A DNA stretch of 64,000 nt from the IMG/VR virus record IMGVR_UViG_3300009103_002187, positions 1 through 64,000 of that record. One strand, 5' to 3'. The position numbers were made by a program, and so were the translations under genes. Positions 9,326 through 60,757 of the stretch are shown in pieces. The stretch's first letter is position 1, and every line of letters begins with the position of its first letter. This DNA comes from a virus. The notes below the pieces were generated by a model that was given only the letters and a program-made list of their open reading frames with translations, did not search any database and was not told the DNA's origin.

Positions 9326-9581
9326 TATCACTCTTGTTATTTTTGGCAAAAATCATTTCTTCCCAAATGAGAAATACAACTCCATCTACCAATACTTTCC
9401 AACATCTCTTTGAATCTTTTCCTGTAAGAGAACTCTCTCCGCAATACTCGACTAAAAGACCGCGCGATTCGCCCTTAAGAAGGCGCATTCCCAAACTTCC
9501 CTTTTCACAAAGATACCTTCCAGGTTTTAAAAAAATTAAGTCACCAGGGCTTAATTCATGTCTTCGTCGTCTAATTGACAT
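9312..9581 (-). CDS. Hypothetical protein (SH3-like, 'PGDLI')
   Basis: ORF within the operon; beta-rich small phage protein. Confidence 0.45.
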   Translation of the reverse strand: MSIRRRRHELSPGDLIFLKPGRYLCEKGSLGMRLLKGESRGLLVEYCGESSLTGKDSKRCWKVLVDGVVFLIWEEMIFAKNNKSDNEHN

Positions 9582-14246: not shown

Positions 14247-16036
<1,790 letters not shown>

Positions 16037-37210: not shown

Positions 37211-37909
37211 CTATTTTAAAGCTTTGGCAATCTTGTCAGCTCTCTTGAAACGCTCATCAATCACACCCCAGTCAAGCTCTTTCATCATAGCATAAATATA
37301 CGTCTTGCGGTTATTAATATAATCCCTATAATAAGAATGCTCCCAGCAATCTAAGACGATGACAGGATAAAAACCTGCAGGAAGATTGGAATTATGCAAG
37401 TCAACAATACAGTTCACATATGTCTGTAAAAATGTGCTAAACCCGGTCACCACCCAACCATTTCTTGCAGAAAGTGCACAGGCAATAAAATCCTTCTGCC
37501 ATCGATCAAATGTTCCAAAGTCTCTCTCTATTCTCATAAATGCGAGAGAATCCATGTTAACCTGACTGCGAACATCGCTGATATTAGCAAAGAAGAGCTC
37601 GTGCAAGTGAACAGCGTTGAGGTTATAAACCTCATCGATCTTAAGTGATCGATACTGGGAGTGATTTAGGCTCGCAGCTTCGCGATCAACAGCATCAAGC
37701 TCAGCGCTAATCCGATTCAAAGTTTTAACATACTTCTCATAAAGCGTTTTGTGTGCCTTTTTATTCTTCGCACTGAGTAGCTCAGTGGGAAGATCAAATT
37801 CCTTGATCTGTGCCACATAGGCCTCATTTAGAGTTTTTTCAGTTTCAGAATCAAGACCTAAGCTTTCTCTCACCAGGTCTCTAATATCGCCATTTTTTAA
37901 ACTATCCAT
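37211..37909 (-). CDS. sod: Fe/Mn superoxide dismutase family protein with an N-terminal extension
   Basis: HKTLYEKYV, LHELFF, IERDFG, GW, LDCWEHSYY. Confidence 0.85.
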   Translation of the reverse strand: MDSLKNGDIRDLVRESLGLDSETEKTLNEAYVAQIKEFDLPTELLSAKNKKAHKTLYEKYVKTLNRISAELDAVDREAASLNHSQYRSLKIDEVYNLNAVHLHELFFANISDVRSQVNMDSLAFMRIERDFGTFDRWQKDFIACALSARNGWVVTGFSTFLQTYVNCIVDLHNSNLPAGFYPVIVLDCWEHSYYRDYINNRKTYIYAMMKELDWGVIDERFKRADKIAKALK

Positions 37910-41254: not shown

Positions 41255-41659
41255 CTAAAGTTTAATTATTTCAATGCCCGCTTCAGTTAAAATCTCAAGG
41301 CTTGATTGATCACGATATTTCTCACCATAAACCACTCGGTCGATTCCAGAGTTAACAATCGCCTTCGCGCACATCCTGCAAGGTGACAGGGTAACATATA
41401 ACGTCTTCTTCTTTGGATTGTTGTAATCCATTTTCAGCAAAGCATTTATCTCGGCATGCAGCATGCCTGACTCACCGGGCGTCTCTGATTCAACCTCATT
41501 TGGGCCACCCTTATAGTTACCGTTGTAACCCACGGCCAGAACCTGGGTATTATCTTCAGTCACAACAACAGCACCCACCTGATGTCTGGGATCATATGAT
41601 CGCCTTGCGATAACCTGTGCACAATTCATCCAGACGTTATTCCAGTCAGGCCTGCTCAT
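41255..41659 (-). CDS. dCMP deaminase (ComEB-like)
   Basis: VGAV, GYNG, HAEINAL, TLSPCRMC. Confidence 0.9.
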   Translation of the reverse strand: MSRPDWNNVWMNCAQVIARRSYDPRHQVGAVVVTEDNTQVLAVGYNGNYKGGPNEVESETPGESGMLHAEINALLKMDYNNPKKKTLYVTLSPCRMCAKAIVNSGIDRVVYGEKYRDQSSLEILTEAGIEIIKL

Positions 41660-42572
41660 CTTCCTTCTTTTCCTTTACAACCTTTGTAGATTTCGAGGTC
41701 TTTGCCTTGGTGCTTCTTCTTTTTCTTGTCTTAGGCTTATCAAATAAATCCTCGACATGCTTATTCTTTGGAAGCTGGAATCCTGCAGCTTTTTTATGTC
41801 CACCCCCGCCAAATCTCTTAGCAATTTCCGACACGTCAACTGTCTCATGAAAGGCCCGAAGGCTCACCTTTGTCAACTTGTCATCGTGATCCCAATACCA
41901 AATCATTGCAAAGTCACAGTCCGGGGCAAGACGAGCTCCGATCTCCGACATCCAGTGGGAGGCATTTACAACCATCACATCCATACCGTCAAATTTTCTA
42001 AGGGTAGCCTTTTCACAAACTTTCTTTACCACCGTTTTTGAATAAGCAAGAATAAACGAACCTCGTTTTCTAGCATCGTCAAATACAGAGTCATCTTCAA
42101 ACTTTTCAAATTCTTCAAATTCAAATGGCACCATATCAAATGCTGCACTAAATTCTTTCGAATACTCTAGCTCCCATGTCCAAAGATCACGATCTTGAAT
42201 GTATCGAATAAATTTAGGCGGCTCTTTCCCAGGATGAAAAAACTCCCAGGAAAGTATTGCTCCGCTCTTAGTCATATCAAAATGAGTATTTGAAATATCG
42301 TGAAGCTCTACCATTGCTGACTTGTGATGATCGATAATCAATAATGCGTCAGCATCCTCAATCATCTGCTTAGTTGTTGCATTATCAAATGAAAAATCGA
42401 GAATTACAACATTCTTTCCAGATACATCAGGTGGAGGCGTGCCGTGTTTGCAGGCATGATACTCAGCACGATTTCCAAGCAGCTTCCAAGCAGCATAAGC
42501 AGCACCAAAGCCATCGGTACAATCTGCATGATATATCACGCAATTCACGCTTGTTGGTTCAACCAGAGCCAT
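41646..42572 (-). CDS. DHH/DHHA1 phosphoesterase
   Basis: YHADCTDG, LDF, IDHH, SLR, GGGHKKAAG. Confidence 0.9.
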   Translation of the reverse strand: MALVEPTSVNCVIYHADCTDGFGAAYAAWKLLGNRAEYHACKHGTPPPDVSGKNVVILDFSFDNATTKQMIEDADALLIIDHHKSAMVELHDISNTHFDMTKSGAILSWEFFHPGKEPPKFIRYIQDRDLWTWELEYSKEFSAAFDMVPFEFEEFEKFEDDSVFDDARKRGSFILAYSKTVVKKVCEKATLRKFDGMDVMVVNASHWMSEIGARLAPDCDFAMIWYWDHDDKLTKVSLRAFHETVDVSEIAKRFGGGGHKKAAGFQLPKNKHVEDLFDKPKTRKRRSTKAKTSKSTKVVKEKKEDEQA

Positions 42573-43149
42573 GGTGGTTCCTTTGATTCATAAAGTCATG
42601 ATGCTCCCAACACCGGGGTTCATAAAGCTCAGCTCCCCCTACGGTGATCTCATTCATGTCTTCAAATTTTCTATATGTGTAATATGCATCTCTGCCAGTG
42701 ATAGGGCAGACAGCGGGACAAACTTCTATTTTAGTTGCCCAAGGCATCATGTCTTTGATCTCATCAAAGACATTACCAGTAGCTGAAAGCTGCAAGGAAG
42801 ATACCACAACAGTCTTTCCAGACCGAAAAATATCTAGCAATGCAGGCGCAGAACCCTTAATCATAAAGGCTTCATCAACTGCCACAACATCAAAATCTTC
42901 TTTTCTATCGCTAACGTTCTCTATAATTTCATCTCCTGATCGTACGCACACAGCAGAAAGACTGCCTCCCGAATGTGTGCTGATATCAGTGTGAGAATAT
43001 CTATCGTCCATCAATGGTTTGAAAGCAATTACCCGCTTATTCTGATAGCGATAACGATCTACAGCTGCGAGCAGCCTCGTCGTCTTAGATCCGAACATTG
43101 GTCCGGTAAAAATGATAAACTCAGGATCATTGTTAACCCCGTTCTTCAT
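42559..43149 (-). CDS. tdk: Thymidine kinase (type II)
   Basis: GPMFGSKTT, D.RY, VDEA, VGGAELYEPRC; start uncertain. Confidence 0.88.
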   Translation of the reverse strand: MKNGVNNDPEFIIFTGPMFGSKTTRLLAAVDRYRYQNKRVIAFKPLMDDRYSHTDISTHSGGSLSAVCVRSGDEIIENVSDRKEDFDVVAVDEAFMIKGSAPALLDIFRSGKTVVVSSLQLSATGNVFDEIKDMMPWATKIEVCPAVCPITGRDAYYTYRKFEDMNEITVGGAELYEPRCWEHHDFMNQRNHHGSG

Positions 43150-43594
43150 CTGACGCATCAGAATTTTTCTCCTTCTCATCAGCGGTGAGGTGTCGATCAT
43201 AATCATCATCTAACCGAACAGGAGAAAGAGAAGGCTTATCTCCTATCTCGATTATTTCGCAGTCTTCTAGCGCTTCAATTCGATATGGGCAACCTGACTG
43301 GACATTTAAAACGTCCCCTGGATTAAAAATTCCAATCCTATACGGATACCGTTCTGGATTTTTTACTGTTCTTTCATCGCCAAACATCACCTTTGCCTTT
43401 CCCACTCGAAAGAATAGTGCCTCATTTTTAAGCGGGTGATACTTTAAGCTAGTTCGGTAGCCCTTTTTTAGAAAAAGTGTCTTTCCTGTCACCCCTCCAA
43501 AACTTGACCATTGAATCTCCGAGCCCCACGGCTTGTCAGACTTTGCAGACCCAGACCGCCAGGCGGTTTTTGCTTCTTTTAATGCCATTAACAT
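43133..43594 (-). CDS. Cupin (mannose-6-phosphate-isomerase-like)
   Basis: KPWG.E, TSLKYHPLKNE, RIEALEDCEIIEI, RLDDDY. Confidence 0.75.
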   Translation of the reverse strand: MLMALKEAKTAWRSGSAKSDKPWGSEIQWSSFGGVTGKTLFLKKGYRTSLKYHPLKNEALFFRVGKAKVMFGDERTVKNPERYPYRIGIFNPGDVLNVQSGCPYRIEALEDCEIIEIGDKPSLSPVRLDDDYDRHLTADEKEKNSDASDEERG

Positions 43595-44636: not shown

Positions 44637-45647
44637 CTATGACAAACCCCACCACACTAGTGTCTTTTCAAGACCTTCCCAGAATCCAATCTTTGGATCG
44701 TATCCTAAATCTTCCTTTGCTCTCGTTACATCTGCTTTTGTATGCATCACATCCCCTGGGCGCCAAGGCGCAGTTCGAACAACTGTGTGTGGGAATCTCT
44801 CTAGAAAGAATTCAGCAATCTGATTATTAGAGGTCCTATCGCCACAAGCAATGTTATAACACCTTCCTTGAAATCCTCCTTCTATATCTGACGTTGCAGC
44901 AAGCAAATTCGCATCAATTACATTGTCAATATAACAATGATCTCTTGATTGTGTTCCATCACCATCTGATCTCAAAGGCTTCGCTTCCTTTGTATTGTTA
45001 CACCAGGCAGAAATTACCGTTGAGTAAGGTGAATCTCCATACTGCCCTGGCCCAAAAACATTAAAATATCGCAAACAGACAATATCAATATTATAAAGCT
45101 CACAAAAGATTTTTGATAAATCTTCTACAGCAGATTTTTGCCAAGCATACGGGGACTTGGGGCTCTTGGGCTGTGTTTCAGGGGTTGGCATTACTTCAGC
45201 CCCGCCGTAAATTGACGAAGACGAAGCCCATACAACTCGATCTACATTGTCCCTACAGGCTTCAAAAAGTCGTGTAGTGGACCAGACATTCACCTCTGTC
45301 GTAAAGCCAGGGTTTTCAACTGAAAATGATACACGTGGAACAGCAGCCTGATGAAAGACAACATCGTACATCTTTCGCTTGATTCTTGCCAAAACACCTG
45401 GATGCGCAAAGTCATCCTGTATTACAAGAACATCCTTGTCAGCACGCGCAGCATCTTCAACTTCTTCAAAATCAACAAGCATTGTTCCAGCAGCAGGAAG
45501 AACCCGAAGCTTTAGACCCTCAAGAAGCTCAAGGTGCCCATTGTACATGTTATCCACAACATCAACAGTCCAGCCTTCCTGGACGAGTCTATGAGTAAGG
45601 TTGCTTCCAATGAATCCGCAACCTCCCGTTACTAAAGCTCTTTTCAT
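44637..45647 (-). CDS. NAD-dependent nucleotide-sugar epimerase/dehydratase
   Basis: TGGCGFIGS, SSSSIYG, YAWQK, RYFNVFGP. Confidence 0.92.
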   Translation of the reverse strand: MKRALVTGGCGFIGSNLTHRLVQEGWTVDVVDNMYNGHLELLEGLKLRVLPAAGTMLVDFEEVEDAARADKDVLVIQDDFAHPGVLARIKRKMYDVVFHQAAVPRVSFSVENPGFTTEVNVWSTTRLFEACRDNVDRVVWASSSSIYGGAEVMPTPETQPKSPKSPYAWQKSAVEDLSKIFCELYNIDIVCLRYFNVFGPGQYGDSPYSTVISAWCNNTKEAKPLRSDGDGTQSRDHCYIDNVIDANLLAATSDIEGGFQGRCYNIACGDRTSNNQIAEFFLERFPHTVVRTAPWRPGDVMHTKADVTRAKEDLGYDPKIGFWEGLEKTLVWWGLS

Positions 45648-45673: not shown

Positions 45674-46594
45674 TTAATCAAGAATGTGAGCAGAGTTTAA
45701 GTTAAATCTCATTCGTACAACATCATTTTCTTGACTTAGTTGAAACTCATCATATACACATTTGGTTAAATAGTACAGGAACTTTAAATCAGTCTTTAAT
45801 TTATTTTTTACATCTGTTGATCTTAATACAAAATGCATATCAAGAATGTTATCTCGATAAACACCTTGAATAAATGAGATACACGAATCATCTGCGTATA
45901 CAAACCTTCTAGAAGAAAGATTTTGTATTAGATTATACTCATTCTTTCCTGACCGCTCGTCCCTAATCTTTTCCAAAAATCTGGTAATAATTTCACGATA
46001 ATACTCTTTTTCGCCCTGCGTTTCAAGAACACTCTCATCTATCTCTGAAAATGTTCCATCATCATAAAATGTAAACGTTATTGGTGTGGCTTCATTTCTA
46101 GGGCAGCTATCAGCAAAACGCTGAATAAATCTTGAAATATCAGACAATGATAGCATCTCGAGCTTATCAAGATAGCTTACAACCTTTTTAGCATTCTCAT
46201 CTACTTCACCGTCAATTAGACAACACACGTTTGGTTGATACATCAATCGGGTAAATCTCCCATAAAAAAGTTCATACACTCGACGAAGAGATGTCAAATC
46301 TTGAAGCTCATCACCCCTTAGATTAAATCTTTTTTCAATTTCTGAAAAAGACGGCAATAAAAATATCATCCTATTATTTAGATCATACATTTCTTTTTGA
46401 TGATTTTCTCGATGTCTAAATTGATCACGACCGTAAAGATCAGCATATACCATCATTGACAAAGATGATCTATCTTGAATGTTCCATCGAAACTTGGTTA
46501 GCTTATGGATTTTGTTATAAAGTGAAGTTTTTCCAGAAAGATCTGGCCCTTCAAGAATTACCGTTGTAGACGGAAAACGTATCATCGTAAGCAC
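45674..46594 (-). CDS. Fusion of a dNMP kinase and a thymidylate-synthase-fold (dCMP hydroxymethylase-like) domain
   Basis: P-loop EGPDLSGKTS, DRS, R; C-terminal SRR, CISFIQ..YRD, RSTDVKNKLKTD, NSAHI. Confidence 0.7.
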   Translation of the reverse strand: MLTMIRFPSTTVILEGPDLSGKTSLYNKIHKLTKFRWNIQDRSSLSMMVYADLYGRDQFRHRENHQKEMYDLNNRMIFLLPSFSEIEKRFNLRGDELQDLTSLRRVYELFYGRFTRLMYQPNVCCLIDGEVDENAKKVVSYLDKLEMLSLSDISRFIQRFADSCPRNEATPITFTFYDDGTFSEIDESVLETQGEKEYYREIITRFLEKIRDERSGKNEYNLIQNLSSRRFVYADDSCISFIQGVYRDNILDMHFVLRSTDVKNKLKTDLKFLYYLTKCVYDEFQLSQENDVVRMRFNLNSAHILD

Positions 46595-47605: not shown

Positions 47606-50600
47606 TTACACAACAACAGGCTTCATTTTTGCACCTGATGAAGAGGCACCCCAGTTCGGATCATTCGCAGCATCAATCATCCAAAGTGTATATAACGTCG
47701 CATCTCTAGGAAGAAAGCCCCAGACACGAAGCCAGGTTGAATTATTATCACTGTCAATCATTTTAAGTCGATAGAATTTCTTACCCTTCTTAGTTCTCTT
47801 CTCAACAATTTCTTGAATACAGCCCCAGACAATTCCTCTCTGACTACCTGACAATGTGGTGATTGGTGGAATGTCAGCTTTTTCAAGCTTTTCCAAAACA
47901 TTATCAGGATAAATCAGATCTCTTGGTACTGTAGACGTGATATCTTGATAGTTGTTTACCTTTTCAGCCCTAGACCAGTCAATTGTGCCAGAAGATAGTT
48001 CAATTAACTGAGGAATAATCGGAGATGCTCCCATCTTCTTTGCTTTTCTCATCGTCATTCCAAACTTACTTTTTCGAAGATTGTCATAATTTTCAAGAAT
48101 AATTTCATAAATTTGCTTATGATTTTCAATCAATCCCGATGACATTTCTTCTAAAGATCCAAATGCTTCAATCTTGCAAAGTGACTCAAAACATCGCTTG
48201 TTCATCTTAGAATGTTTCCACACACCGTCGCTGTCATACAAGAGATTATCAAGATTTTTATATGGTCGCATCTTCATAATTTCACTAACAGCGGTGTCAC
48301 CGACACCCTTTACTGCGGTCAGAGGGGGAACAAACGCTTCAATTTCATCAGAATACTCCCATGAAATGCCCGAATAATTGATATCGGCTGGCGCAAGTTT
48401 ATATCCCATTTGCTTAATTTCACCAATTGTCTTAGACAATCCCTTCGGATTATTATTTTCAGATTGAAGAATTGTTGCCAACCACTCCTTTTCATAATGT
48501 GTGTGAAGCCAAGCTGCATAATACGAATCAATTGCGTAAGCAACAGCGTGTGATTTATTAAAGCCATACACAGAAAAGAATTCAATTCGATCAAATAGGC
48601 TGTGCAGCTTATCTTCAGGCAAGCTGTGAAGCTTCTTAGCACCTTCGACAAATTTCTCTCTTAGGGCATCTCGCTCTGCACCTTTCTTCCCAATGGTATC
48701 CAGCGATTTTTTAACAAGCGTCTTGCGCATCTTGTCAGACTCACCGGGAGTAAATCCAGCAAGCTTTTGTGCCAGAAGCATAAACTGTTCCTGAAAAGTG
48801 ATATGACCGAATGTCGGGCCCAAAATTTCTTCAATGATTGGATGATCATACTTGATCTGATCGGCTCTTCGCTTATCATTCACATACTTCTTGTGAACAT
48901 TCGCTCGAAGAGGCCCTGGACGATAAATCGCAGTCAAAGCAGCAAGCTCTTCAATAGAAGACGGCTTAGCATCTTCACAGAATCTTCTTGCTCCTTCTGC
49001 AGTAAATTGAAATACTCCCGTCTTTCTTCGCTGGTGATAGACATGCTCCCATACTTTACTATCGTCTAGAGTATTATAGCGACAATTGATATTATCATCA
49101 AAAAATGTTTTTATTTCTTGAAATGCTGGATTTTCATTTCCCTGCTTCTTTAAAATCCTGCCAATACAATTTTCCACATCTTTTAGCAGGGTCAGACCGA
49201 GAAAATCAAACTTAATAAATCCATTATCTTCTAGATTTCTAAAGTTCATGCCTTCAGTCCACGGTGTCTGAAGTTCACCTCTGACGCCCACTAGCGGCAT
49301 TGACTTTTCAAGGTCTTCAGCAGGCGCAATAATTACTCCTCCAGCATGTCTACCAATACTTCTATTCTGCATGAATAGAGACTCAATGTGATCCTTGACC
49401 TTTGGATATTTTTCCATAAACTCACGATAACGCTTAGAGTGAGTCATGCAATCCTCGTGTTTCAAAACAAAAACAGACTTTTCAGTATTTTCATCTTTGA
49501 CCTGGGGCATTACCTCAAACTGCAGGGGACCAGTAACAGCATTTACCTCATCAAAAGGAACATCATAAAATTTAGAAATATCTTTGACAAGTGACTTTAG
49601 CTTTAACGTGTTGAAATTTGAAACAGGAATTACAGCATCATCACCGTAAAGTTCTCGAGCTGCATCAATTAGAGCATCTCGATCCCCAGCATCAGAATCA
49701 ATATCGGGCCAGCTAGTTCGATGCCGTCCCAAAAACCGATCCCATAGAAGACCGTATGGAAGTGGATCGAGCTGTGTAATTCCCAAAAGATAATTTACAA
49801 TACTTCCTCCACCAGATCCTCGAGCAGGCCCAAAAAGAGTTCGATCTTCCGCTTTGTGAAAAACCTGATACATCGTTAGGAAATAATTTTCAAATCCCAA
49901 ATATTTGATATCAGCAAGTTCAGTCTTGGCCCTAGATACATACTCATCATTATCAACCAAGTCCTCCTTAACTAGCCCTTCCTTGACGAGATCTAAGAGC
50001 TGTTGAAAAGCAGTTTTCTTTGGAGTGTTGAAATTTGGAAGCTTTACCGATTGATCAATCCAGGTATCTTCGCACATCTCCCAAGCAATATCATGGGTCC
50101 GCTCAATTGCGTCACGAACTCTTTCTTGCGTCCCATTGTAAAAGTCATGCTTATCATAATGAAGCATATACTCATCCCACATCTGAGAAGCATTTTTAGG
50201 ATATAATTCACATTTTAGATCATCGAATTCGGGCAACGGAGAAACTGACTTTCCCATCCATCCTAGCTTCTTATAAAGCTCACGAGCTTCCCATTTATTT
50301 GGGCCGTAATAGTGAGAATCAGCAGTTGCGATTAGAGGAATTCCAGTTGTTTCTGAAAGAGAAAGCAAGTGCTTGTTGACAGAGTGCTGTGCATTAAGCT
50401 TATTGAATTGAAGCTCAAGAAAGAAATTTTCAACCCCTACAGCGTCAACAAAACGGTCTGTTATATTTGACAAAGTCAATTGGATCTCCTCAAAAGAGGC
50501 ACCTGATGCCTCGCCCCGAAGAACTCTATTTGACATGATCCCACCTAAGCACGCGGTAGAAACAATCAATCCTTCACCGTGCTGCTTAAGCATCTCAAAG

Positions 50601-51145
50601 TCAATTCGAGGAAACCGATAAAACCCATGTTTATAGGACTTCTTAATTAGAGTAAAAAGGTTGCCTAACCCCGTCCGATTCTTAGCAACTACAACAAGAT
50701 GATATCTTCGCTTCCAGTCATCTTTGTCCACGTCAATAGTCTTAGTTTCTTCCTCATTTTCAATAGTATGGCCAGCTGCAACTACGTCTTCATCAGCATC
50801 AATATCTGTCTTCTCTTTGGCTTTCTTTTCAGACCTTGCAGCTTTTACTGCCTCCCGATGATTATTGTAATCAATCCTCCACTGACTAAGAGATGGAACA
50901 AAATAAAATTCACACCCATAAATCTGCCGATATTTCTGGCCTGATTCCTGAACTTTCTTGGCATGCTTATACGCATGTGCCAGTCCAGATCCATTCCCAT
51001 GATCAGTTAGCGCCAACGCATCCATTTCGTTTGAAAGAACGAAATCAATGTGATCAGCGGGATATCCCAAGCCATCAAAAACTGAAAAACCTGAATGTGC
51101 GTGCAACCCGACAAAGCGCCGAGGTGGCTTGATAATCTTACTCAT
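47606..51145 (-). CDS. dnaE: DNA polymerase III alpha subunit (family C)
   Basis: PHP HAHS..S.FDG, ALTDHG, RGSGGGS, PDIDSD, HAGG, KFDFLGL, YGFNKSHA. Confidence 0.97.
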   Translation of the reverse strand: MSKIIKPPRRFVGLHAHSGFSVFDGLGYPADHIDFVLSNEMDALALTDHGNGSGLAHAYKHAKKVQESGQKYRQIYGCEFYFVPSLSQWRIDYNNHREAVKAARSEKKAKEKTDIDADEDVVAAGHTIENEEETKTIDVDKDDWKRRYHLVVVAKNRTGLGNLFTLIKKSYKHGFYRFPRIDFEMLKQHGEGLIVSTACLGGIMSNRVLRGEASGASFEEIQLTLSNITDRFVDAVGVENFFLELQFNKLNAQHSVNKHLLSLSETTGIPLIATADSHYYGPNKWEARELYKKLGWMGKSVSPLPEFDDLKCELYPKNASQMWDEYMLHYDKHDFYNGTQERVRDAIERTHDIAWEMCEDTWIDQSVKLPNFNTPKKTAFQQLLDLVKEGLVKEDLVDNDEYVSRAKTELADIKYLGFENYFLTMYQVFHKAEDRTLFGPARGSGGGSIVNYLLGITQLDPLPYGLLWDRFLGRHRTSWPDIDSDAGDRDALIDAARELYGDDAVIPVSNFNTLKLKSLVKDISKFYDVPFDEVNAVTGPLQFEVMPQVKDENTEKSVFVLKHEDCMTHSKRYREFMEKYPKVKDHIESLFMQNRSIGRHAGGVIIAPAEDLEKSMPLVGVRGELQTPWTEGMNFRNLEDNGFIKFDFLGLTLLKDVENCIGRILKKQGNENPAFQEIKTFFDDNINCRYNTLDDSKVWEHVYHQRRKTGVFQFTAEGARRFCEDAKPSSIEELAALTAIYRPGPLRANVHKKYVNDKRRADQIKYDHPIIEEILGPTFGHITFQEQFMLLAQKLAGFTPGESDKMRKTLVKKSLDTIGKKGAERDALREKFVEGAKKLHSLPEDKLHSLFDRIEFFSVYGFNKSHAVAYAIDSYYAAWLHTHYEKEWLATILQSENNNPKGLSKTIGEIKQMGYKLAPADINYSGISWEYSDEIEAFVPPLTAVKGVGDTAVSEIMKMRPYKNLDNLLYDSDGVWKHSKMNKRCFESLCKIEAFGSLEEMSSGLIENHKQIYEIILENYDNLRKSKFGMTMRKAKKMGASPIIPQLIELSSGTIDWSRAEKVNNYQDITSTVPRDLIYPDNVLEKLEKADIPPITTLSGSQRGIVWGCIQEIVEKRTKKGKKFYRLKMIDSDNNSTWLRVWGFLPRDATLYTLWMIDAANDPNWGASSSGAKMKPVVV

Positions 51146-51205: not shown

Positions 51206-51487
51206 TTAAGCATCGCCGAACAAAACAAATACTCTATCAAAAAAAGTTATCTCAAAACCAGGCGGGAAAAACATTTCTTTTCCTGACTCGGTGATAACTG
51301 ACAATGGAGATTCTAGCGTCACGGTTTCTGAGTGGGGTTGAGGAAAAATGTCATAAATATAAACTTCATTTCCATGTGCATTCTCAAGTCGCTGGAGCAG
51401 CTCATCAACGTGCACCTCGTACGTAAAATAAAATGTTAGTCTACTTTTCTCATTCTCAGCGATATATCGATAAATGTCCATCTTCAC
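51206..51487 (-). CDS. Hypothetical protein
   Basis: ORF coupled to the upstream gene. Confidence 0.5.
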   Translation of the reverse strand: MKMDIYRYIAENEKSRLTFYFTYEVHVDELLQRLENAHGNEVYIYDIFPQPHSETVTLESPLSVITESGKEMFFPPGFEITFFDRVFVLFGDA

Positions 51488-55003: not shown

Positions 55004-55990
55004 TCAATAAAAATCTATGAGATCTATTCCTTCTGACTTTGCTTTCTCAAGATGCATCAGAGGATTATATTCGGCAGCCCCAGATAACTCTGAAATGCTT
55101 TCCCAAGATCTCTTTAAACCGTTATACAAACCATGTCTCGGAGTCCATCCTGAAGCATCTCTAAACTTTTGAGAACTTAAAATATGATTACCCAGATAGT
55201 CAGTCTCAGGATGCCATTGTATAATTGAACCAATATCATATCCTGAAATTTCAGACATCATGTCAACAATTTCTCCAGTTACACACGGTGTCTCTGCCGC
55301 AACATTAAAATCATCATTCCACAATCCCAAGTGACAAGCAGTCGCAACTGCATCACAAAAATCAAAAACATGCATATAGTCCTTTTGCTTTTTTGGATCT
55401 AAAAACATGGCAAGATCTTTCACACCGTTTTTTACTGCAAAAAATGACTTTGCCATTAGCGAGTTCATATCACCTACACCCCCGTAAGCAAACAAGGGTC
55501 TGATGATCATCCATTTATCACAGTGAGATTTGACAATATGTTCTCCTGAAAGTTTAAGCGCACCATAAAATGTTTTTGGTTGAAGAATGCTATCTTCAAA
55601 GATTGTAGAACTTTGATATAAATCAGTTTTGTAAATTACGGTTGTACCCATATAACAAACCGGTATCTTCATCTCATTTGCTGCTCGGCAGATATTATAA
55701 GTTCCCGCGACATTTGTTAGTGTTGCATGATTTGAGTTTAATGCCACAACATCAGTTCCTACAACGGCAGCATTATGAACAACCACATCAATGTTCAATC
55801 TAGAAAGAGCATCCTTCCATACCTCAGTATCATTTCGATAAACACAGGGCTCTAATGTTCCAACAATCTTTTCAGTTAGACCATGATCATCTCGATTACA
55901 TAGGGATACAACGTCATGACCCAAAGTTTTAAAGGACTGAAATAGATTGCTAGCGATAAAACCTTTCTCACCCGTCACTAATACTCTCAC
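55004..55990 (-). CDS. NAD-dependent epimerase/dehydratase (atypical Rossmann motif GEKGFIA)
   Basis: VTGEKGFIAS, HNAA, YGALK, IRP..YG, DYMHVFD. Confidence 0.85.
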   Translation of the reverse strand: MRVLVTGEKGFIASNLFQSFKTLGHDVVSLCNRDDHGLTEKIVGTLEPCVYRNDTEVWKDALSRLNIDVVVHNAAVVGTDVVALNSNHATLTNVAGTYNICRAANEMKIPVCYMGTTVIYKTDLYQSSTIFEDSILQPKTFYGALKLSGEHIVKSHCDKWMIIRPLFAYGGVGDMNSLMAKSFFAVKNGVKDLAMFLDPKKQKDYMHVFDFCDAVATACHLGLWNDDFNVAAETPCVTGEIVDMMSEISGYDIGSIIQWHPETDYLGNHILSSQKFRDASGWTPRHGLYNGLKRSWESISELSGAAEYNPLMHLEKAKSEGIDLIDFY

Positions 55991-56899: not shown

Positions 56900-57964
56900 T
56901 TACTTGTAATTAAGACAGATAGTTTCTAACAACAGCCTTGTAACCACATAAGGGTCACAATTTGCATTAGGGCGACGATCTTCTAAATAGCCGCTTTCCT
57001 TATTTGCAACTGCCCTTGGAATTCGAATAGACGCAGTCCTATCTGCAATGCCCCAACGAAAATCCTCATAAGAACAAGTCTCATGTTCACCTGTTAGCCT
57101 CAGTTCAATGCCTTCACCATAACCCGAAAGATGAGCTTCAGTTCTACCTTGAAGCTTCTTACATGCCTGTTCAATATGACTTAAGCCTCCGGGTTGTCTC
57201 ATTCTATTTGTGCTAAAGTTAGTATGACATCCAGCACCATTCCAATCTCCCATCATCGGTTTTGGTTCAAAAGTCACAGTCATTCCAGACTTTTCAGAAA
57301 TCTTCAAGAGAAGCCAGCGAGAAAGCCAGATTTGATCACTCACATCAACAGCACCGACATTGGGACCACCAATCTGATATTCCCATTGTCCTGGCATCAC
57401 TTCTGCATTTGTTCCAGTGATGTCAAGGCCTGCATGAATACACACATACAGATGATTATCTGAGACCTCTCTTCCAAATGCTCGATCACCTCCTGCGCTA
57501 CAATAATAAATTCCCTGTGGTGACGGATAACCCGTTGGAGGAAAACCTAAAGGGCGTTTATCTTTGCAAATTGTATACTCTTGTTCTAAACCAAACCACG
57601 GATCACTATCACTAGTGTCTGCTGCCACTTGACTCAAAAGTCTTCGATAGTTTGTTTTGTGGGGAGACCCATCTCCATTTAAGACCTCACACAAAACAAT
57701 AAAAGCGGTATTATCACCACGAACTGCGTCAGGAATTACCTTTACTGGTGACAGTAAACAATCTGAATCTCCTCCTGACGCCTGACCTGTTGATGATCCA
57801 TCGAAGCCCCATTCAGGTAGACATGTATGATCCATGGTCTCTCTAAGGTATTTAAAATCTCCCAGAGGAAGTGTATGAACACCAATCTTAGATCTTAGTC
57901 CCCAGGGAGTAAATCCGTCTATCCAGACATACTCAAGCTTTACTTTGACTAAATTACTATTCAT
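56900..57964 (-). CDS. glnII: Glutamine synthetase type II
   Basis: EYVWIDG, FDGSSTGQA, EQEY, EVMPGQWEYQIG, DWNGAGCH, RLTGEHET, GYLEDRRP. Confidence 0.95.
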   Translation of the reverse strand: MNSNLVKVKLEYVWIDGFTPWGLRSKIGVHTLPLGDFKYLRETMDHTCLPEWGFDGSSTGQASGGDSDCLLSPVKVIPDAVRGDNTAFIVLCEVLNGDGSPHKTNYRRLLSQVAADTSDSDPWFGLEQEYTICKDKRPLGFPPTGYPSPQGIYYCSAGGDRAFGREVSDNHLYVCIHAGLDITGTNAEVMPGQWEYQIGGPNVGAVDVSDQIWLSRWLLLKISEKSGMTVTFEPKPMMGDWNGAGCHTNFSTNRMRQPGGLSHIEQACKKLQGRTEAHLSGYGEGIELRLTGEHETCSYEDFRWGIADRTASIRIPRAVANKESGYLEDRRPNANCDPYVVTRLLLETICLNYK

Positions 57965-58404
57965 TACTCTATGCTTCCATAGTAAGGCTCATAAAGCAAC
58001 TCACCAACTTCAGCACAGCGCTCGAGATAATCATCAAGATCTTCGATAGAAGTACACACCTTAATTCCAGACTGTGCTAACATTAGATTGAATGTTGCGC
58101 CCGAAGGCAATCCTGAACAAAAATAGACAATCGGAGTATCTGATTGAAATGCTACACCTGCTTCAAAAATACTTCCCATATCTTTGTCGCGTGTATTACA
58201 AATCACAAAATCGTTTCCAAGAATATGTTTTACGTTCCCTTCAAACGTTGCTTTTTGTGTCTTTAAGTCTGCCGTAGGAGGACAGACAAAAAAATCCTTT
58301 GGAGAAAAATACTCAAACTGATGTTTTGTCAGCATCTCCTTGATCATTTCAACTTCTTCAAAAGCTGGTGGTGTGAACCAAGAACTTGCGATATATGCTT
58401 TCAT
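57964..58404 (-). CDS. Nucleoside 2-deoxyribosyltransferase / nucleotide N-glycosidase family
   Basis: YIASSWF, FSP, D.GSIFEAG.A, FNLML. Confidence 0.85.
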   Translation of the reverse strand: MKAYIASSWFTPPAFEEVEMIKEMLTKHQFEYFSPKDFFVCPPTADLKTQKATFEGNVKHILGNDFVICNTRDKDMGSIFEAGVAFQSDTPIVYFCSGLPSGATFNLMLAQSGIKVCTSIEDLDDYLERCAEVGELLYEPYYGSIE

Positions 58405-58416
58405 TTTTATTTCCTT

Positions 58417-59397
58417 TTAATTAAAGCGATTTTGATACTCTTCTTCAAGCAAGCTAATCTCACTTATAATAGAGTTCCAGAGTTGTCTAAACTTAGTGTT
58501 ACCATCACACTCATCATCGGGTGGGCTTGTCCCGTTTAGATCATAACGGTATCCTTGATAGATAGTGTCATTAGGGTGATACTCAATGTGCTCAGCGCTA
58601 TCGTCATCAGGCCAGTAAAGATTTGTTCCAGTTCCTGACCTGAGATTCTTAATATAATGCCACGCTGGACTTGTCAATGTTTTTGATCCAATGACAGCGC
58701 TAGCTTCGGGAAGAACCTTAATGATTTCAAGGGCCATTTTTGCTGCAATTAAATTATCAACAGCAGGCTGAATCTGCTTATCTGACCGTTGTTTAATAAA
58801 CCCGATAATATCTTTTAGATTAAATCGACCATAGTAAAATGTGGACAGACATTTTGGAAGAATGGTTCTTGCGTCCATCATAGAAATCTTCTTGGAATCA
58901 ACCATGTCAGCGTAAAGCTGCTTTCCATCTTCTACATGTCGCTGCCATCGTCGATAAAGCTCTGGGCTATTTTCCACTGAGCTGGGAACAAGACAAGGTT
59001 CATGGTGAAGAAAACGATCTCCCGTACACTGCGCTGCCCATGATCCCGCACGATGTCGAATCAAGTGGGTCACAGTTTGAAGATCAATTCCTGCAAACTT
59101 AAAGGTGAAGCTAAAAATCTCCATCGGAGTTGGCAAAGCACGAAAACAAAGAACATCTTCAAGATTTTCGCTTAACTCAATAGCTGAAGCACCGTCAGGG
59201 TTAGTAAAATCAGGAGTATCAGCCCATGTTGCCTTCACAAACCTCCAAGCAACATCTCGCATCTGTTCAGCTGTGGGATGATCTACAAGTTCAACTTGTA
59301 AAGCATTTAAATCATTTAAAAATTCCGTAGTTGGTTCCTCATCAAAACGAAGGGTCATGGGAAGAACGACAGGATCAAGATCAGTATTTTGTGCCAA
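58417..59397 (-). CDS. thyX: ThyX-like flavin-dependent thymidylate synthase variant
   Basis: THLIRHRAGSWAAQC, DARTILP, R; TTG start. Confidence 0.75.
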   Translation of the reverse strand: MAQNTDLDPVVLPMTLRFDEEPTTEFLNDLNALQVELVDHPTAEQMRDVAWRFVKATWADTPDFTNPDGASAIELSENLEDVLCFRALPTPMEIFSFTFKFAGIDLQTVTHLIRHRAGSWAAQCTGDRFLHHEPCLVPSSVENSPELYRRWQRHVEDGKQLYADMVDSKKISMMDARTILPKCLSTFYYGRFNLKDIIGFIKQRSDKQIQPAVDNLIAAKMALEIIKVLPEASAVIGSKTLTSPAWHYIKNLRSGTGTNLYWPDDDSAEHIEYHPNDTIYQGYRYDLNGTSPPDDECDGNTKFRQLWNSIISEISLLEEEYQNRFN

Positions 59398-59398
59398 T

Positions 59399-60367
59399 TT
59401 ATTTCTCCTTATTGATCAAATTATGCACTAAACTATAAACTTCAGAAACGTCTTTGTACACAGACACTCCAGAAATATTTGATAATTCTTTATTATAACT
59501 TTTAGCAGGTGAAAGGACTTCGATACCATGCTTAGCGTACTCTGAAGAATGCTTGGCAGAGTCATCAATTGCGCACACAACCTTGTCAGCATCATAAAAA
59601 TCCTTTTGAACTAGCCACCTAAATTTTTCAGGAGAAAAATCAAGATGATGAAACCTTACGCCTGCATTGGAAATCCAATAGAATGTGTCATATAAACAAG
59701 TTAAGTTTTCCTTTGGTCTCGCTGTGATTATCTGAATCCAAAAACCCTCATTGTAAAATGTGTTAATCAAGTCAATCATCTCCTGATTCTTGCTAATCTT
59801 GCGCAAACCTCTATCTGAAATAAACTCTTGAAAAACGCCCTCTGGCAAAAATCCAGCTTCTTTTACCTCTTTTGTGCTATAATACTCTGTTGATTCGGGA
59901 TCAACACTAATTCCCTTTTTATCGCGCAACCAATCAGTAAAATCTTCTCTAAAATTATTAAGAACATCGTCCATGTCAACTAAAAGAACAGGCTTATTAT
60001 TCCAGACATTCTTTTCCATCTCATGACGAACATGAAGATAAAGATCTTTATCCCAAAATGCCCTAATAAAGTCTTCAGTGCTAAAGTCCCACATATTGAG
60101 AATCGCCAACAAATAACGAAAAGCATCAATTGACTTATATAAGATCTTATCAGTGTCAATATCATGCTTAATAAGTCGATGATCTTTAAAATTAACAGAA
60201 GTTGCAAGTCCTGTGGCTTCAGCGTGCAAAGCCAGAGAAAATGATTTAGTCATCTCTTCCTTTTGTCTATCAGACATCTTATCTTTGTCAAAGAATAAAG
60301 ATGAAAATTCATCCTGTCTCTCCAACATTGTCTTTAGCAAAAGGATATCTTTTTCTTTATTACTCAA
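59399..60367 (-). CDS. Fusion of a degenerate MazG/dUTPase-like domain and a HAD 5'(3')-nucleotidase
   Basis: N-terminus parallels the upstream gene; LVDMDDVL, ITARP, K, IDD. Confidence 0.7.
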   Translation of the reverse strand: MSNKEKDILLLKTMLERQDEFSSLFFDKDKMSDRQKEEMTKSFSLALHAEATGLATSVNFKDHRLIKHDIDTDKILYKSIDAFRYLLAILNMWDFSTEDFIRAFWDKDLYLHVRHEMEKNVWNNKPVLLVDMDDVLNNFREDFTDWLRDKKGISVDPESTEYYSTKEVKEAGFLPEGVFQEFISDRGLRKISKNQEMIDLINTFYNEGFWIQIITARPKENLTCLYDTFYWISNAGVRFHHLDFSPEKFRWLVQKDFYDADKVVCAIDDSAKHSSEYAKHGIEVLSPAKSYNKELSNISGVSVYKDVSEVYSLVHNLINKEK

Positions 60368-60382
60368 AAGAACATCCTCTAA

Positions 60383-60757
60383 TTAGTATCCCTCTAGAAG
60401 TCGCTGATGTATAATTTTATCTTTCTTTTCATACGCTTCAAAAAGATCTTCAGCAGTAACTCCTGTCAAAATTAATAGTGAAAAAAAGTAATTGAAAGCA
60501 TCTACGACTTCCTCAAGAAACTCGTCTTGATTAAACTCCTTGATCTCAGTCACCCTATGAGGCTTCCAGTTTTTAAGATGACCAAGTGCCTCAAACATTT
60601 CCTCAACCCCCCGTAATGCGATATCTCGAACAAACTGTTGGTTCTTCTTAGACGTCAGATCTAATGGCCAAGAAGGATGAGATTCGGGAACCCTAGCTTT
60701 TAGCTTTTGCATAAATCTTTCTCTCATCTCAAACATTTCTGAAAGCTGATCACTCAT
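60383..60757 (-). CDS. Dimeric dUTPase / dCTPase-like (all-alpha NTP pyrophosphatase)
   Basis: EEMFEA...WKPH...EEVVDAFNYF...Y.KK...HQR..EGY. Confidence 0.8.
   Translation of the reverse strand: MSDQLSEMFEMRERFMQKLKARVPESHPSWPLDLTSKKNQQFVRDIALRGVEEMFEALGHLKNWKPHRVTEIKEFNQDEFLEEVVDAFNYFFSLLILTGVTAEDLFEAYEKKDKIIHQRLLEGY

What the first reader, a model, noticed from the sequence alone, without database searches (positions are those of the whole stretch)
45674..46594. dNMP kinase fused to a minimal thymidylate-synthase fold carrying the dCMP-specificity Asp
Seen: an N-terminal P-loop kinase (EGPDLSGKTS...DRS) and a C-terminal CISFIQGVYRD...RSTDVKNKLKTD...NSAHI segment. Known: in ThyA the residue 11 positions after the RS arginine is Asn (dUMP-specific, E. 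coli N177), while in T4 gp42 dCMP hydroxymethylase it is Asp. Here it is Asp, and the catalytic Cys is retained. The domain is short and seems to lack much of the folate-binding region. Inference: a single polypeptide modifies dCMP and phosphorylates the product, possibly with non-folate chemistry, feeding a modified cytosine to the phage DnaE.
Basis: partly seen in the sequence, partly recalled or inferred. Interest (0 to 1): 0.82.

Follow-up and report, generated by a model that had tools for sequence, protein, structure and literature searches.

The report
Phage kinase fused to mini thymidylate-synthase
An uncultured marine giant phage encodes one protein that joins a small nucleotide kinase to a stripped-down thymidylate-synthase-type domain built to bind dCMP. 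It and hundreds of relatives probably make and phosphorylate an altered cytosine nucleotide for phage DNA, but the chemistry is not shown.

Summary
ORF 45674-46594 (-), with a likely start at ATG 46585, has two domains. Residues 10-147 form a YorR/TMK-like P-loop nucleotide kinase (Z 14.0). Residues 148-306 form a minimal thymidylate-synthase (TS) fold.

With the domain folded alone, the seven best of 48,161 PDB representatives are all TS-superfamily chains (Z 11.3-7.9), and the next hit scores 6.0. The profile-profile comparison gives E 2e-10.

The catalytic Cys, the cross-subunit Arg-Arg pair, Arg-Ser, His and the cytosine-specifying Asp (Arg+11) are invariant. A TS-like homodimer is predicted (0.90 against 0.04 for the best control).

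The parts that bind folate in ThyA and T4 dCMP hydroxymethylase are missing. The D169 position varies D/N/E across the family.

The closest structure is the flavin/O2-dependent dCMP 5-hydroxylase AfhB (about 99% identical to RB69 gp48). Known clusters of that enzyme also hold a YorR/TMK-like kinase gene.

The gene lies beside DnaE in 81 of 81 loci, with TK and dCMP deaminase nearby.

A bifunctional modified-dCMP synthase plus kinase is the best reading. The chemistry, and whether the DNA is modified at all, remain untested.

This scan had already reached the same reading for relatives in other genomes. I class it as a new variant of a known kind.

The parts
45674..46594 (-). Whole ORF, 306 aa from the GTG. 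The probable true start is ATG 46585, which gives 303 aa.
46154..46567 (-). N-terminal P-loop nucleotide kinase domain, residues 10-147 (YorR/TMK/dNK-like)
   Evidence: VIA: 3kb2 YorR Z 14.0, rmsd 2.9, 139 aligned. PDB profile hit to YorR, E 2.6e-7. phrog_761 thymidylate kinase, E 1.9e-8.
46526..46552 (-). P-loop EGPDLSGKT (residues 15-23). E15, G16, D18, G21 and K22 are invariant.
46466..46474 (-). DRS motif (residues 41-43), invariant. It is the counterpart of the DR[YHF] nucleotide-binding motif of TMK and dNK.
   Evidence: motif assignment from general knowledge of the family
46310..46330 (-). LID-like RFNLRGD (residues 89-95). R89, R93, G94 and D95 are invariant. It aligns with RVRGDE of YorR.
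45677..46153 (-). C-terminal minimal thymidylate-synthase-fold domain, residues 148-306
   Evidence: Domain-alone model: VIA over 48,161 chains gives a top 7 that is all TS superfamily (9iqc Z 11.3, 144 aligned, down to T4 dCH Z 7.9), then Z 6.0. Foldseek: 9iqu E 2.4e-6, TMq 0.58. hhalign E 2.2e-10.
45905..45913 (-). S228-R229-R230, equivalent to E. coli S125-R126-R127, the phosphate-binding Arg pair donated to the partner subunit
   Evidence: Invariant. In the predicted dimer, R229 of one copy touches R258/S259 of the other.
45881..45883 (-). C238, equivalent to the catalytic nucleophile C146 (T4 dCH C148)
   Evidence: Invariant in 36 and in 20 sequences. Aligned by hhalign and hmmsearch.
45812..45823 (-). 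R258-S259-T260-D261, equivalent to R166-S167-C168-D169. R and S are invariant. Position 261 varies D/N/E in the family.
45788..45790 (-). D269, equivalent to N177 of ThyA and D179 of T4 dCH (the cytosine-specifying residue)
   Evidence: Invariant in A3 and at least 90% in A1. Mapping.
45686..45697 (-). N300-S301-A302-H303, the SAH motif. H303 equals H207. The protein ends three residues later, so Y209 and the whole C-terminal folate lid are absent.
47606..51145 (-). DnaE-type replicative polymerase, the upstream neighbour of the target in 81 of 81 related loci
44637..45647 (-). SDR nucleotide-sugar epimerase/dehydratase directly downstream (family present in 61 of 81 loci)
42559..43209 (-). 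Thymidine kinase (70 of 81 loci)
41255..41659 (-). dCMP deaminase (69 of 81 loci)
57964..60757 (-). Nucleotide-pool genes of the same conserved block: an NDT-family protein, a divergent ThyX and two MazG/dUTPase_2-like proteins

Best explanation
The gene encodes a homodimeric bifunctional enzyme of deoxypyrimidine metabolism that supplies the neighbouring DnaE polymerase.

The C-terminal mini-TS domain binds dCMP. R258 and S259, together with R229 and R230 of the partner subunit, hold the phosphate. D269 reads and protonates the cytosine. C238 attacks C6, so that C5 becomes nucleophilic and takes up an electrophile.

The folate-binding helices and the C-terminal lid are missing, and the D169 position is free to vary. 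The electrophile is therefore most likely not methylene-tetrahydrofolate.

The nearest precedent is hydroxylation by a loosely bound flavin hydroperoxide, as in AfhB and RB69 gp48, which gives 5-hydroxy-dCMP.

The N-terminal YorR/TMK-like kinase then phosphorylates the modified dNMP to the diphosphate. Alternatively it supplies dCMP. The DNA would then carry a C5-modified cytosine.

Shown here: the folds, the conserved residues, a predicted TS-like dimer and the synteny. Inferred: catalysis, the substrate, the product, the order of the steps and incorporation into DNA.

My odds are about 0.55 for 'makes and phosphorylates a C5-modified dCMP'. Within that, I put about half on 5-hydroxylation.
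For: Fold:
- Residues 148-306 match only the TS superfamily. Z is 11.3 for AfhB 9iqc with 144 of 166 residues aligned. ThyA scores 10.6-9.4, MilA 8.9 and T4 dCH 7.9. The next unrelated chain scores 6.0.
- All of Foldseek's listed matches (ranks to 50) are TS superfamily. AfhB is best at E 2.4e-6.
- The whole-protein searches agree.

Sequence:
- hhalign gives E 2.2e-10 with residue-for-residue mapping of the nucleotide-binding and catalytic residues.
- The best PDB profile hits are the two dCMP-acting enzymes, T4 dCH (E 0.0036) and AfhB (E 0.022).

Conservation:
- C238, R229, R230, R258, S259, D269 and H303 are invariant in sequences down to 32% identity.
- The residue at Cys-3 (L143 in E. coli) is D/N/S/E, as in the hydroxymethyl and hydroxyl synthases (PMC13326640).
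- The SAH-I/V motif is shared with RB69 gp48, PTm5_167, LG08_64 and PAU gp182. ThyA has DTHLY and dCH has SLHVY.

Dimer:
- The predicted homodimer scores ipSAE 0.90 against 0.04 for the best of 3 controls. The runs share at least 94% of contacts and the partner pLDDT is at least 90.
- In the tool's calibration, 20 of 30 proteins solved as pairs and 1 of 23 solved as single chains reached the mark.
- The interface is sheet to sheet, and R229 of one copy touches R258/S259 of the other, as in TS.
- Because TS dimers are solved, this pass may reflect likeness to them.

Kinase:
- The domain is intact: P-loop, DRS motif and LID arginines are present, with Z 14.0 to YorR.

Rosetta-stone link:
- The 5hodCMP synthase clusters of DLP3, RB69 and RL38J1 each carry a YorR/TMK-like nucleotide kinase one to three genes away (PMC13326640, Table 1; for RB69p045 and RB69p048).

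Context:
- The gene is next to DnaE in 81 of 81 loci, with TK (70), dCMP deaminase (69), and ThyX, NDT and MazG-like genes nearby.
- A separate ThyX covers dTMP synthesis, so the Asp-type domain is not needed for thymidylate.
Against: - No direct evidence exists for activity or for modified DNA.
- The domain lacks roughly 55 residues that AfhB still has before the SRR motif, so a flavin site like AfhB's is not assured.
- The D169N signature that Lee et al. propose as diagnostic for 5hodCMP synthases is not met by this protein, which has D261. By my reading of alignment A1, only about a third of the family has N.
- An R21 equivalent could not be identified.
- No flavin reductase, no DHFR and no lineage-wide glycosyltransferase were found in five related genomes, one of them 100% complete.
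- Some family members, including this window, also encode an Fpg/Nei-type glycosylase. Nei-type enzymes excise 5-hydroxycytosine (general knowledge).
- The target is the only TMK-like match in its own record. Three weak P-loop-only matches in two relatives were not examined. The fusion could therefore mainly be the phage's dTMP/dNMP kinase.
Confidence: 0.55

Rival explanations
1. The protein is a folate-dependent dCMP hydroxymethylase or methylase of the T4 gp42 or XP12 type, fused to its dNMP kinase. The missing folate-binding elements are replaced by the kinase domain of the partner subunit, which packs against the TS-like domain.
For: - T4 dCH is the best PDB sequence-profile hit (E 0.0036).
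- The window's own protein keeps Asp at the D169 position and an acidic residue at the L143 position, as T4 dCH does.
- In the predicted dimer, kinase residues 59-68 of one copy touch strands 175-177 and 294 of the other copy's TS-like domain. A composite site is therefore conceivable.
- The phage already depends on host CH2-THF for its ThyX.
Against: - The PABA crevice (T4 dCH Y56, I81, W82, V85), E60 and the C-terminal Y218 and R220 have no counterpart. The protein ends three residues after H303 (PMC6400193).
- The D169 position varies D/N/E among apparent orthologues in conserved synteny. That is hard to square with its pterin-binding role.
- T4 dCH scores lowest of the TS-superfamily representatives in structure (Z 7.9 against 11.3 for AfhB).
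- Pfam PF00303 does not detect the domain.
Confidence: 0.15
2. The protein is chiefly the phage's dTMP/dNMP kinase. The TS-like domain is then a non-catalytic dCMP/dUMP-binding module that serves for dimerisation or for allosteric sensing of the pyrimidine pool. The DNA is canonical.
For: - The target is the only match to the TMK model in its own record, and the 100% complete relative shows none. Yet the lineage encodes TK, ThyX and dCMP deaminase and so needs a dTMP kinase.
- The cofactor-binding parts of the TS fold are gone, and D169 is unconstrained.
- No glycosyltransferase or dedicated reductase is conserved.
- Both parent families are dimers, and the predicted interface uses both domains.
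Against: - The nucleophilic Cys, the Asp that protonates N3, and His303 are invariant across sequences down to about 32% identity. A mere scaffold or sensor would not be expected to keep the full catalytic set.
- Three unrelated 5hoC phage groups pair the same two activities (PMC13326640).
Confidence: 0.18
3. The protein is a salvage-type enzyme. The kinase domain is a deoxynucleoside kinase that makes dCMP from deoxycytidine, and the TS-like domain converts it further. One possibility is Cys-assisted C5 chemistry or deamination. The steps would run in the opposite order to the first reader's proposal.
For: - The kinase domain matches deoxynucleoside kinases about as well as TMKs: M. mycoides dAK Z 13.0, Giardia dAK Z 11.6, S. 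aureus TMK Z 12.1.
- Some databases name homologues 'deoxyadenosine/deoxycytidine kinase'.
Against: - The phage has its own TK and a zinc dCMP deaminase.
- The modified dNMP would still need a kinase able to accept it, as in T4 and RB69 (PMC13326640).
- Nothing in the sequence separates nucleoside from nucleotide substrates.
Confidence: 0.1

Closest known systems
Flavin/O2-dependent dCMP 5-hydroxylase, or 5hodCMP synthase: phage HY126 AfhB (PDB 9iqu, 9iqc), RB69 gp48, DLP3 gp80, RL38J1 gp216 (PMC13326640)
   Same: - Best structural match: Z 11.3-11.7 with 144-146 residues aligned, and Foldseek E 1.4e-6 to 2.4e-6.
- Shares the catalytic Cys, RS, the Asp at the N177 position, a polar or acidic residue at the L143 position, and the SAH-I/V motif.
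- Its gene clusters also contain a YorR/TMK-like nucleotide kinase.
   Different: - AfhB and gp48 are stand-alone proteins of 238 aa. They have about 135 residues before SRR, against about 80 here.
- The D169N signature is not met in this protein (D261) and varies D/N/E in the family.
- Here the kinase is fused.
- No arabinose or UDP-sugar genes and no glycosyltransferases are conserved.
T4 gp42 dCMP hydroxymethylase together with T4 gp1 dNMP kinase
   Same: - Same pathway logic: a TS-fold enzyme with Cys and Asp acts on dCMP, and a phage kinase then takes the product to the diphosphate.
- Best PDB sequence-profile hit (E 0.0036).
- Asp is kept at the D169 position in this window's protein.
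   Different: - In T4 these are two separate proteins, and gp1 belongs to a different kinase family.
- T4 dCH has a full folate site (Y56, E60, I81, W82, V85, F174, Y218, R220; PMC6400193). For most of these residues no counterpart was found here.
- The structural score is lower (Z 7.9-9.0).
Bacillus prophage SPbeta YorR (PDB 3kb2, 2axp) and thymidylate or deoxynucleoside kinases
   Same: The N-terminal domain matches YorR at Z 14.0, rmsd 2.9, 139 residues aligned and 26% identity. The P-loop, DR-x motif and LID arginines are present.
   Different: YorR is a stand-alone protein of 173 aa with no assigned substrate. It has no TS-like domain.
Viral 'Thymidylate kinase/Thymidylate synthase domain-containing protein' cluster in the ESM Atlas (about 437 aa; PF00303 in 100% of members, PF02223 in 39%)
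   Same: It carries the same two families in one protein (domain order not checked). Its TS part superposes on residues 148-306 (TM 0.74 by query).
   Different: Its TS domain is full length and detectable by Pfam. The family here is about 135 aa shorter and invisible to PF00303. I could not fetch members to compare residues.

Membership tests
Thymidylate synthase superfamily (ThyA / dCH / MilA / AfhB fold) | The TS alpha/beta fold with the central sheet | tested here: met
   With the domain alone, the top 7 of 48,161 chains are all TS superfamily (Z 11.3-7.9, 137-146 residues aligned), and the next is Z 6.0. hhalign E 2.2e-10.
Thymidylate synthase superfamily | Catalytic Cys (E. coli C146) | tested here: met
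   C238 aligns with C146 and with T4 C148, and is invariant.
Thymidylate synthase superfamily | Phosphate-binding arginines R166 (with S167) and R126'/R127' from the partner subunit | tested here: met
   R258/S259 and R229/R230 are invariant. Cross-subunit contacts 229 with 258/259 appear in the predicted dimer.
Thymidylate synthase superfamily | Fourth phosphate-binding arginine (R21), and the catalytic Glu (E58) and Tyr (Y94) of the N-terminal half | tested here: inconclusive
   The profile alignment stops at E. coli residue 120. The invariant E195, Y198 and Y199 and the nearly invariant E168 are candidates. No residue-level structural alignment was available.
Thymidylate synthase superfamily | Obligate sheet-to-sheet homodimer | tested here: met
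   Complex prediction gives ipSAE 0.90 against 0.04 for the best control. The interface strands are 232-236, 240-247, 252-258 and 292-300. This is a prediction only and may reflect likeness to solved TS dimers.
Thymidylate synthase superfamily | Match to Pfam PF00303 above its gathering score | tested here: not met
   No PF00303 hit at E <= 1 and none in the genome at E <= 10. There is only a weak phrog_160 hit, E 7e-4.
Folate-dependent TS and dCMP hydroxymethylase (ThyA, T4 gp42) | Folate site: the PABA crevice helices (W80/W83; T4 Y56, I81, W82, V85), a conserved D169, and a C-terminal lid (Y209 and beyond; T4 Y218, R220) | tested here: not met
   - The domain has only about 80 residues before SRR, against 125 in E. 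coli.
- It ends 3 residues after H303.
- The Y209 position is L/I/V.
- D261 varies D/N/E (PMC6400193).
dCMP-specific TS homologues (T4 gp42, MilA, AfhB) | Asp in place of N177 | tested here: met
   D269 lies at Arg258+11. It is invariant in A3 and at least 90% in A1.
5hodCMP synthase (AfhB / RB69 gp48) | The D169N signature proposed as diagnostic (PMC13326640) | tested here: not met
   This protein has D261. Counted by eye in A1, the family has roughly 15 D, 13 N and 7 E among 36 sequences.
5hodCMP synthase (AfhB / RB69 gp48) | Flavin binding and O2-dependent hydroxylation | not testable with these tools
   No coordinates or ligand docking were available. No phage flavin reductase was found.
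P-loop NMP / deoxynucleoside kinases (YorR, TMK, dNK) | Kinase fold with the Walker A lysine, the DR-x nucleotide-binding motif and LID arginines | tested here: met
   Z 14.0 to 3kb2. G16, G21, K22, D41, R42, R89 and R93 are invariant. PDB profile E 2.6e-7. Pfam PF02223 gives only 15.6 bits, below its cut-off of 27.

The most novel reading that the evidence does not exclude
The mini-TS domain has lost both the folate-binding parts of ThyA and dCH and much of the extra N-terminal half that AfhB keeps. It may use a different electrophile or cofactor. Or it may use the partner protomer's kinase domain as its lid, giving a composite, channelling active site. In either case it would produce a C5-modified dCMP not yet described. 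A cosmopolitan lineage of ocean giant phages would then carry an unrecognised cytosine modification.
Probability: 0.15. Interest if true: 0.85.

Novelty: new variant of a known kind. Interest (0 to 1): 0.6.

Why it matters
If the domain is active, a whole lineage of uncultured marine giant phages would replace or supplement cytosine with a C5-modified base. The lineage is large: at least 242 protein clusters at 50% identity, on contigs up to 284 kb, always with the gene beside the polymerase.

That would have three consequences:
- It would affect how these phages evade restriction and CRISPR.
- It would affect how their DNA behaves in sequencing and in metagenomic quantification.
- It would offer the smallest known thymidylate-synthase-fold catalyst, fused to the kinase that consumes its product. 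That is a compact system for studying how this fold moved from folate to other cofactors, a question Lee et al. (PMC13326640) leave open.

If the domain turns out to be a non-catalytic sensor, it would be a clear example of a TS fold recruited for regulation.

Tried and rejected
- tblastn of the whole protein and of residues 150-306 against 50,697 phage records found nothing, even at E 1. No cultured phage in that collection carries the family. The DnaE is only 28% identical to the nearest isolate.
- phmmer of the single sequence against the PDB saw only YorR, weakly. A profile was needed to go further.
- The Pfam TS model finds nothing in this record or in four large relatives.
- A search for longer architectures with the domain profile returned only the same fusion family at 311-328 aa. 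The 'near' search was filled by the family itself. Stand-alone mini-TS proteins and the 437-aa and 577-aa architectures seen in the ESM Atlas therefore could not be fetched or checked.
- I considered that the neighbouring SDR epimerases plus the cupin form an Rml-like pathway for DNA glycosylation. All NCBIfam scores are far below their cut-offs. GT1 and GT2 genes occur in only 2 of 5 genomes. This is left open and not used as support.
- I looked for a link between D, N or E at position 261 and gene context. None was evident by eye.
- Public runs hold the stretch only as assembled contigs of marine metagenomes. Reads could not show base-modification signals.
- The script machine was lost. No tree was built, the D/N/E tally could not be scripted, and there was no residue-level structural superposition.
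Full report
**What is there.** The minus-strand ORF 45674-46594 encodes 306 aa from a GTG. An ATG three codons in (46585) is preceded by GAGGG at a 10-nt spacing, and database homologues of 303 aa start there. I take 46585 as the probable start. D269 lies exactly 11 residues after R258.

**The family.** A word-indexed search found 308 homologues. An exhaustive HMMER pass over 1.84 billion cluster representatives found 242 clusters at E <= 0.001. Apart from evident fragments, they are about 300 aa long and align over both halves. Sources are marine, including Tara, JGI and ENA, on contigs up to 284 kb. In a 36-sequence alignment (A1) the invariant residues fall into two blocks:
- E15, G16, D18, G21, K22, D41, R42, S43, R89, R93, G94 and D95 in the N-terminal half
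- E195, Y198, Y199, S228, R229, R230, C238, S240, R258, S259, N300, S301 and H303, with D269 nearly invariant, in the C-terminal half

A more diverse 20-sequence alignment of the C-terminal half alone (A3) keeps E195, Y198, R229, R230, C238, R258, S259, D269 and H303 invariant down to 32% identity.

**Structure.** AlphaFold2 on A1 gave mean pLDDT 94.0 and pTM 0.90. Residues 10-153 superpose on the SPbeta prophage protein YorR (3kb2: Z 14.0, rmsd 2.9, 139 aligned, 26% identity). They match thymidylate, guanylate and deoxynucleoside kinases slightly less well.

Residues 148-306 superpose on the TS superfamily. To keep the kinase from crowding the hit list, I folded residues 141-306 alone (pLDDT 92.7). 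An exhaustive comparison with 48,161 PDB representatives put seven TS-superfamily chains on top:
- AfhB-type 9iqc: Z 11.3, 144 of 166 residues aligned
- four ThyA chains: Z 10.6-9.4
- MilA: Z 8.9
- T4 dCH: Z 7.9

The next chain, which is unrelated, scores Z 6.0. All of Foldseek's listed matches (ranks to 50) are TS superfamily, with 9iqu best at E 2.4e-6 and TMq 0.58. AfhB leads ThyA by about one Z unit or less, so 'closest to AfhB' is a lean and not a separation.

**Sequence mapping.** I built a small reference alignment (A2) from six proteins:
- E. coli ThyA
- a T4-like dCMP hydroxymethylase (Salmonella phage NP4)
- RB69 gp48, which is about 99% identical to the crystallised AfhB
- three more gp48-like phage proteins (PTm5_167, LG08_64, PAU gp182)

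hhalign of A3 against A2 gives probability 96.8% and E 2.2e-10. It maps:
- S228/R229/R230 to S125/R126/R127
- C238 to C146
- R258/S259 to R166/S167
- D261 to D169
- D269 to N177
- H303 to H207

A profile search of the PDB with A3 returns T4 dCH (E 0.0036) and AfhB (E 0.022) as the only meaningful hits. Both are dCMP-acting enzymes. Pfam's TS model does not see the domain at all, and PHROGs sees it weakly.

**What is missing.** The domain has about 80 residues before the SRR motif. E. coli ThyA has 125 and AfhB/gp48 about 135. The protein stops three residues after H303.

The T4 dCH ternary complex (PMC6400193) shows THF held by Y56, E60, I81, W82, V85, F174, Y218 and R220, and through water by D171. 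The first five lie in the part of the fold that, by domain length and by where the profile alignment stops, is absent here. Y218 and R220 lie beyond the C-terminus.

The D171/D169 equivalent (D261) varies freely among apparent orthologues in conserved synteny. Counted by eye in A1, there are roughly 15 D, 13 N and 7 E. A canonical folate site is therefore not present.

Lee et al. (PMC13326640) propose D169N as the signature of 5hodCMP synthases. The window's protein has Asp, so I do not file it as a member of that family.

Two features still lean toward the hydroxyl or hydroxymethyl branch:
- The Cys-3 position (L143) is polar or acidic.
- The C-terminal motif is SAH-I/V, as in gp48, PTm5_167, LG08_64 and PAU gp182. 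ThyA has DTHLY and dCH has SLHVY.

**Dimer.** TS active sites are built across a sheet-to-sheet dimer. A two-copy prediction scored ipSAE 0.90 in each of three runs, against 0.04 for the best of 3 controls. The runs share at least 94% of contacts and pLDDT is 90. The tool's calibration is 20 of 30 proteins solved as pairs and 1 of 23 solved as single chains reaching the mark.

The interface uses strands 232-236, 240-247, 252-258 and 292-300. R229 of one copy touches R258 and S259 of the other, which is the TS arrangement. Kinase residues 34-68 also lie in the interface. Helix 59-68 of one copy packs on strands 175-177 and 294 of the other's TS-like domain.

TS dimers are solved, so this pass may partly be memory of a known complex. 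It is a prediction, not a measurement.

**Context.** Eighty related viral loci were fetched with 10-kb flanks and their ORFs clustered. Counting the window, the gene is near a DnaE-type polymerase in 81 of 81 loci. Thymidine kinase is present in 70, dCMP deaminase in 69, an SDR sugar epimerase/dehydratase family in 61 and superoxide dismutase in 57.

Upstream of DnaE many loci carry MazG-like, ThyX and NDT-family genes, as does this window at 57964-60757. The gene is thus a fixed part of the replication and nucleotide-pool module of a lineage of giant marine phages. This record is 79.8 kb and an estimated 27% complete. Relatives reach 284 kb.

In five related genomes there is no PF00303 TS, no DHFR and no flavin reductase. 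Glycosyltransferases of families 1 and 2 occur in only two of the five. The Pfam TMK model finds only the target itself in this record, and weakly. Three other weak matches in two relatives cover only the P-loop start of the model and were not examined.

**Literature link.** Lee et al. 2026 (PMC13326640) show that RB69 gp48, DLP3 gp80 and other TS homologues convert dCMP to 5-hydroxy-dCMP with O2 and a loosely bound flavin. They cite the HY126 AfhB crystal structures for the flavin.

Their Table 1 lists a YorR/TMK-like 'nucleotide kinase' one to three genes from the synthase in DLP3 (gp78), RB69 (p045) and RL38J1 (gp214). I confirmed the RB69 arrangement in the record. The fusion here joins the same two families in one chain. 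That is a Rosetta-stone argument that they work together.

The ESM Atlas also holds a viral cluster of about 437 aa named thymidylate kinase/thymidylate synthase. PF00303 is present in all its members and PF02223 in 39%. A fusion of these two families in one viral protein is therefore not new in itself. The minimal form is uncharacterised.

**Reading.** I think the most likely function is a homodimeric bifunctional enzyme. Its mini-TS domain activates C5 of dCMP through C238 and D269 and adds a small group by non-folate chemistry. Its kinase domain phosphorylates the product for the adjacent polymerase. I put this at 0.55, with 5-hydroxylation the leading single chemistry at roughly half of that.

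The rivals are:
- a folate enzyme with a composite site (0.15)
- a dTMP/dNMP kinase whose TS-like domain is a non-catalytic nucleotide-binding or dimerisation module (0.18)
- a salvage-type order of steps (0.10)

Three points count against naked 5-hydroxycytosine: the Asp at the D169 position, the absence of conserved sugar transferases, and an Fpg/Nei-family glycosylase in this window (61025-61828) and in ten other loci.

**Earlier notes of this scan.** The same family was noted in at least five other genomes, and follow-up agents reached the same reading. My tests were run independently on this window and agree.
- the D/N/E variability at the D169 position
- the dimer prediction with the cross-subunit Arg contacts
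- the 81 of 81 linkage to DnaE
- the lack of any other clear TMK-like match

I could not see the earlier agents' full reports, so I cannot say which of these are new to the scan.

**Limits.** I therefore could not build a tree, tally residues by script or superpose models residue by residue.

Noticed in passing
window 61025-61828 (-): An Fpg/Nei-family DNA glycosylase with all three Pfam domains. It sits in the same nucleotide block, and the cluster is present in 11 of the 81 loci. Nei-type enzymes excise 5-hydroxycytosine, which sits oddly with a 5hoC genome unless the base is protected or the enzyme is Fpg-specific.
   Followed up: partly
window 58417-59397 (-), with 57964-58404 and 59399-60757: A divergent ThyX: 59 bits in Pfam, but only 37 bits against an NCBIfam cut-off of 87.9. 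It is flanked by an NDT-family (DNPH1/MilB-like) gene and two MazG/dUTPase_2-like genes. The block is conserved upstream of DnaE in many relatives.
   Followed up: partly
related loci L028, L059, L060, L063, L066, L068, L070: In these loci DnaE appears as 2-4 ORF pieces separated by small ORFs. One intervening ORF in L066 has a Phage_endo_I-like match. This suggests mobile insertions, introns or inteins in the polymerase gene.
   Followed up: no
window 44637-45647, 43133-43594, 55004-55990 (-): Two SDR nucleotide-sugar epimerase/dehydratase genes and a small cupin lie within the nucleotide operon. Their specificity is unassigned, as all NCBIfam scores are far below cut-off. Sphingomonas phage PAU likewise has RmlB- and RmlC-like genes three and four genes downstream of its gp48-like TS homologue (L087).
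   Followed up: partly
G002 203-213 kb; G003 124-149 kb (loci L088-L095): Clusters of three GT1 and two GT2 glycosyltransferase genes are present in two large relatives. They are absent from G001 (87% complete) and G004.
   Followed up: no
ESM Atlas, no coordinates: Bacillota proteins of about 577 aa with a metallophosphoesterase domain carry a part that superposes on the mini-TS domain (TM 0.74 by query). Stand-alone viral and bacterial proteins of 168-195 aa are the nearest neighbours by language-model features.
   Followed up: no
window 14247-15833, 37211-37909, 56900-57964, 51484-54342, 8093-9349 (-); L017 3349-6323: The phage carries several cell-like genes: a GroEL-type chaperonin, Fe/Mn superoxide dismutase, a glutamine-synthetase-like protein, a 952-aa protein with a CCA/poly(A)-polymerase head domain and an ATP-dependent DNA ligase. 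Relatives carry DnaK and DnaJ next to DnaE.
   Followed up: no
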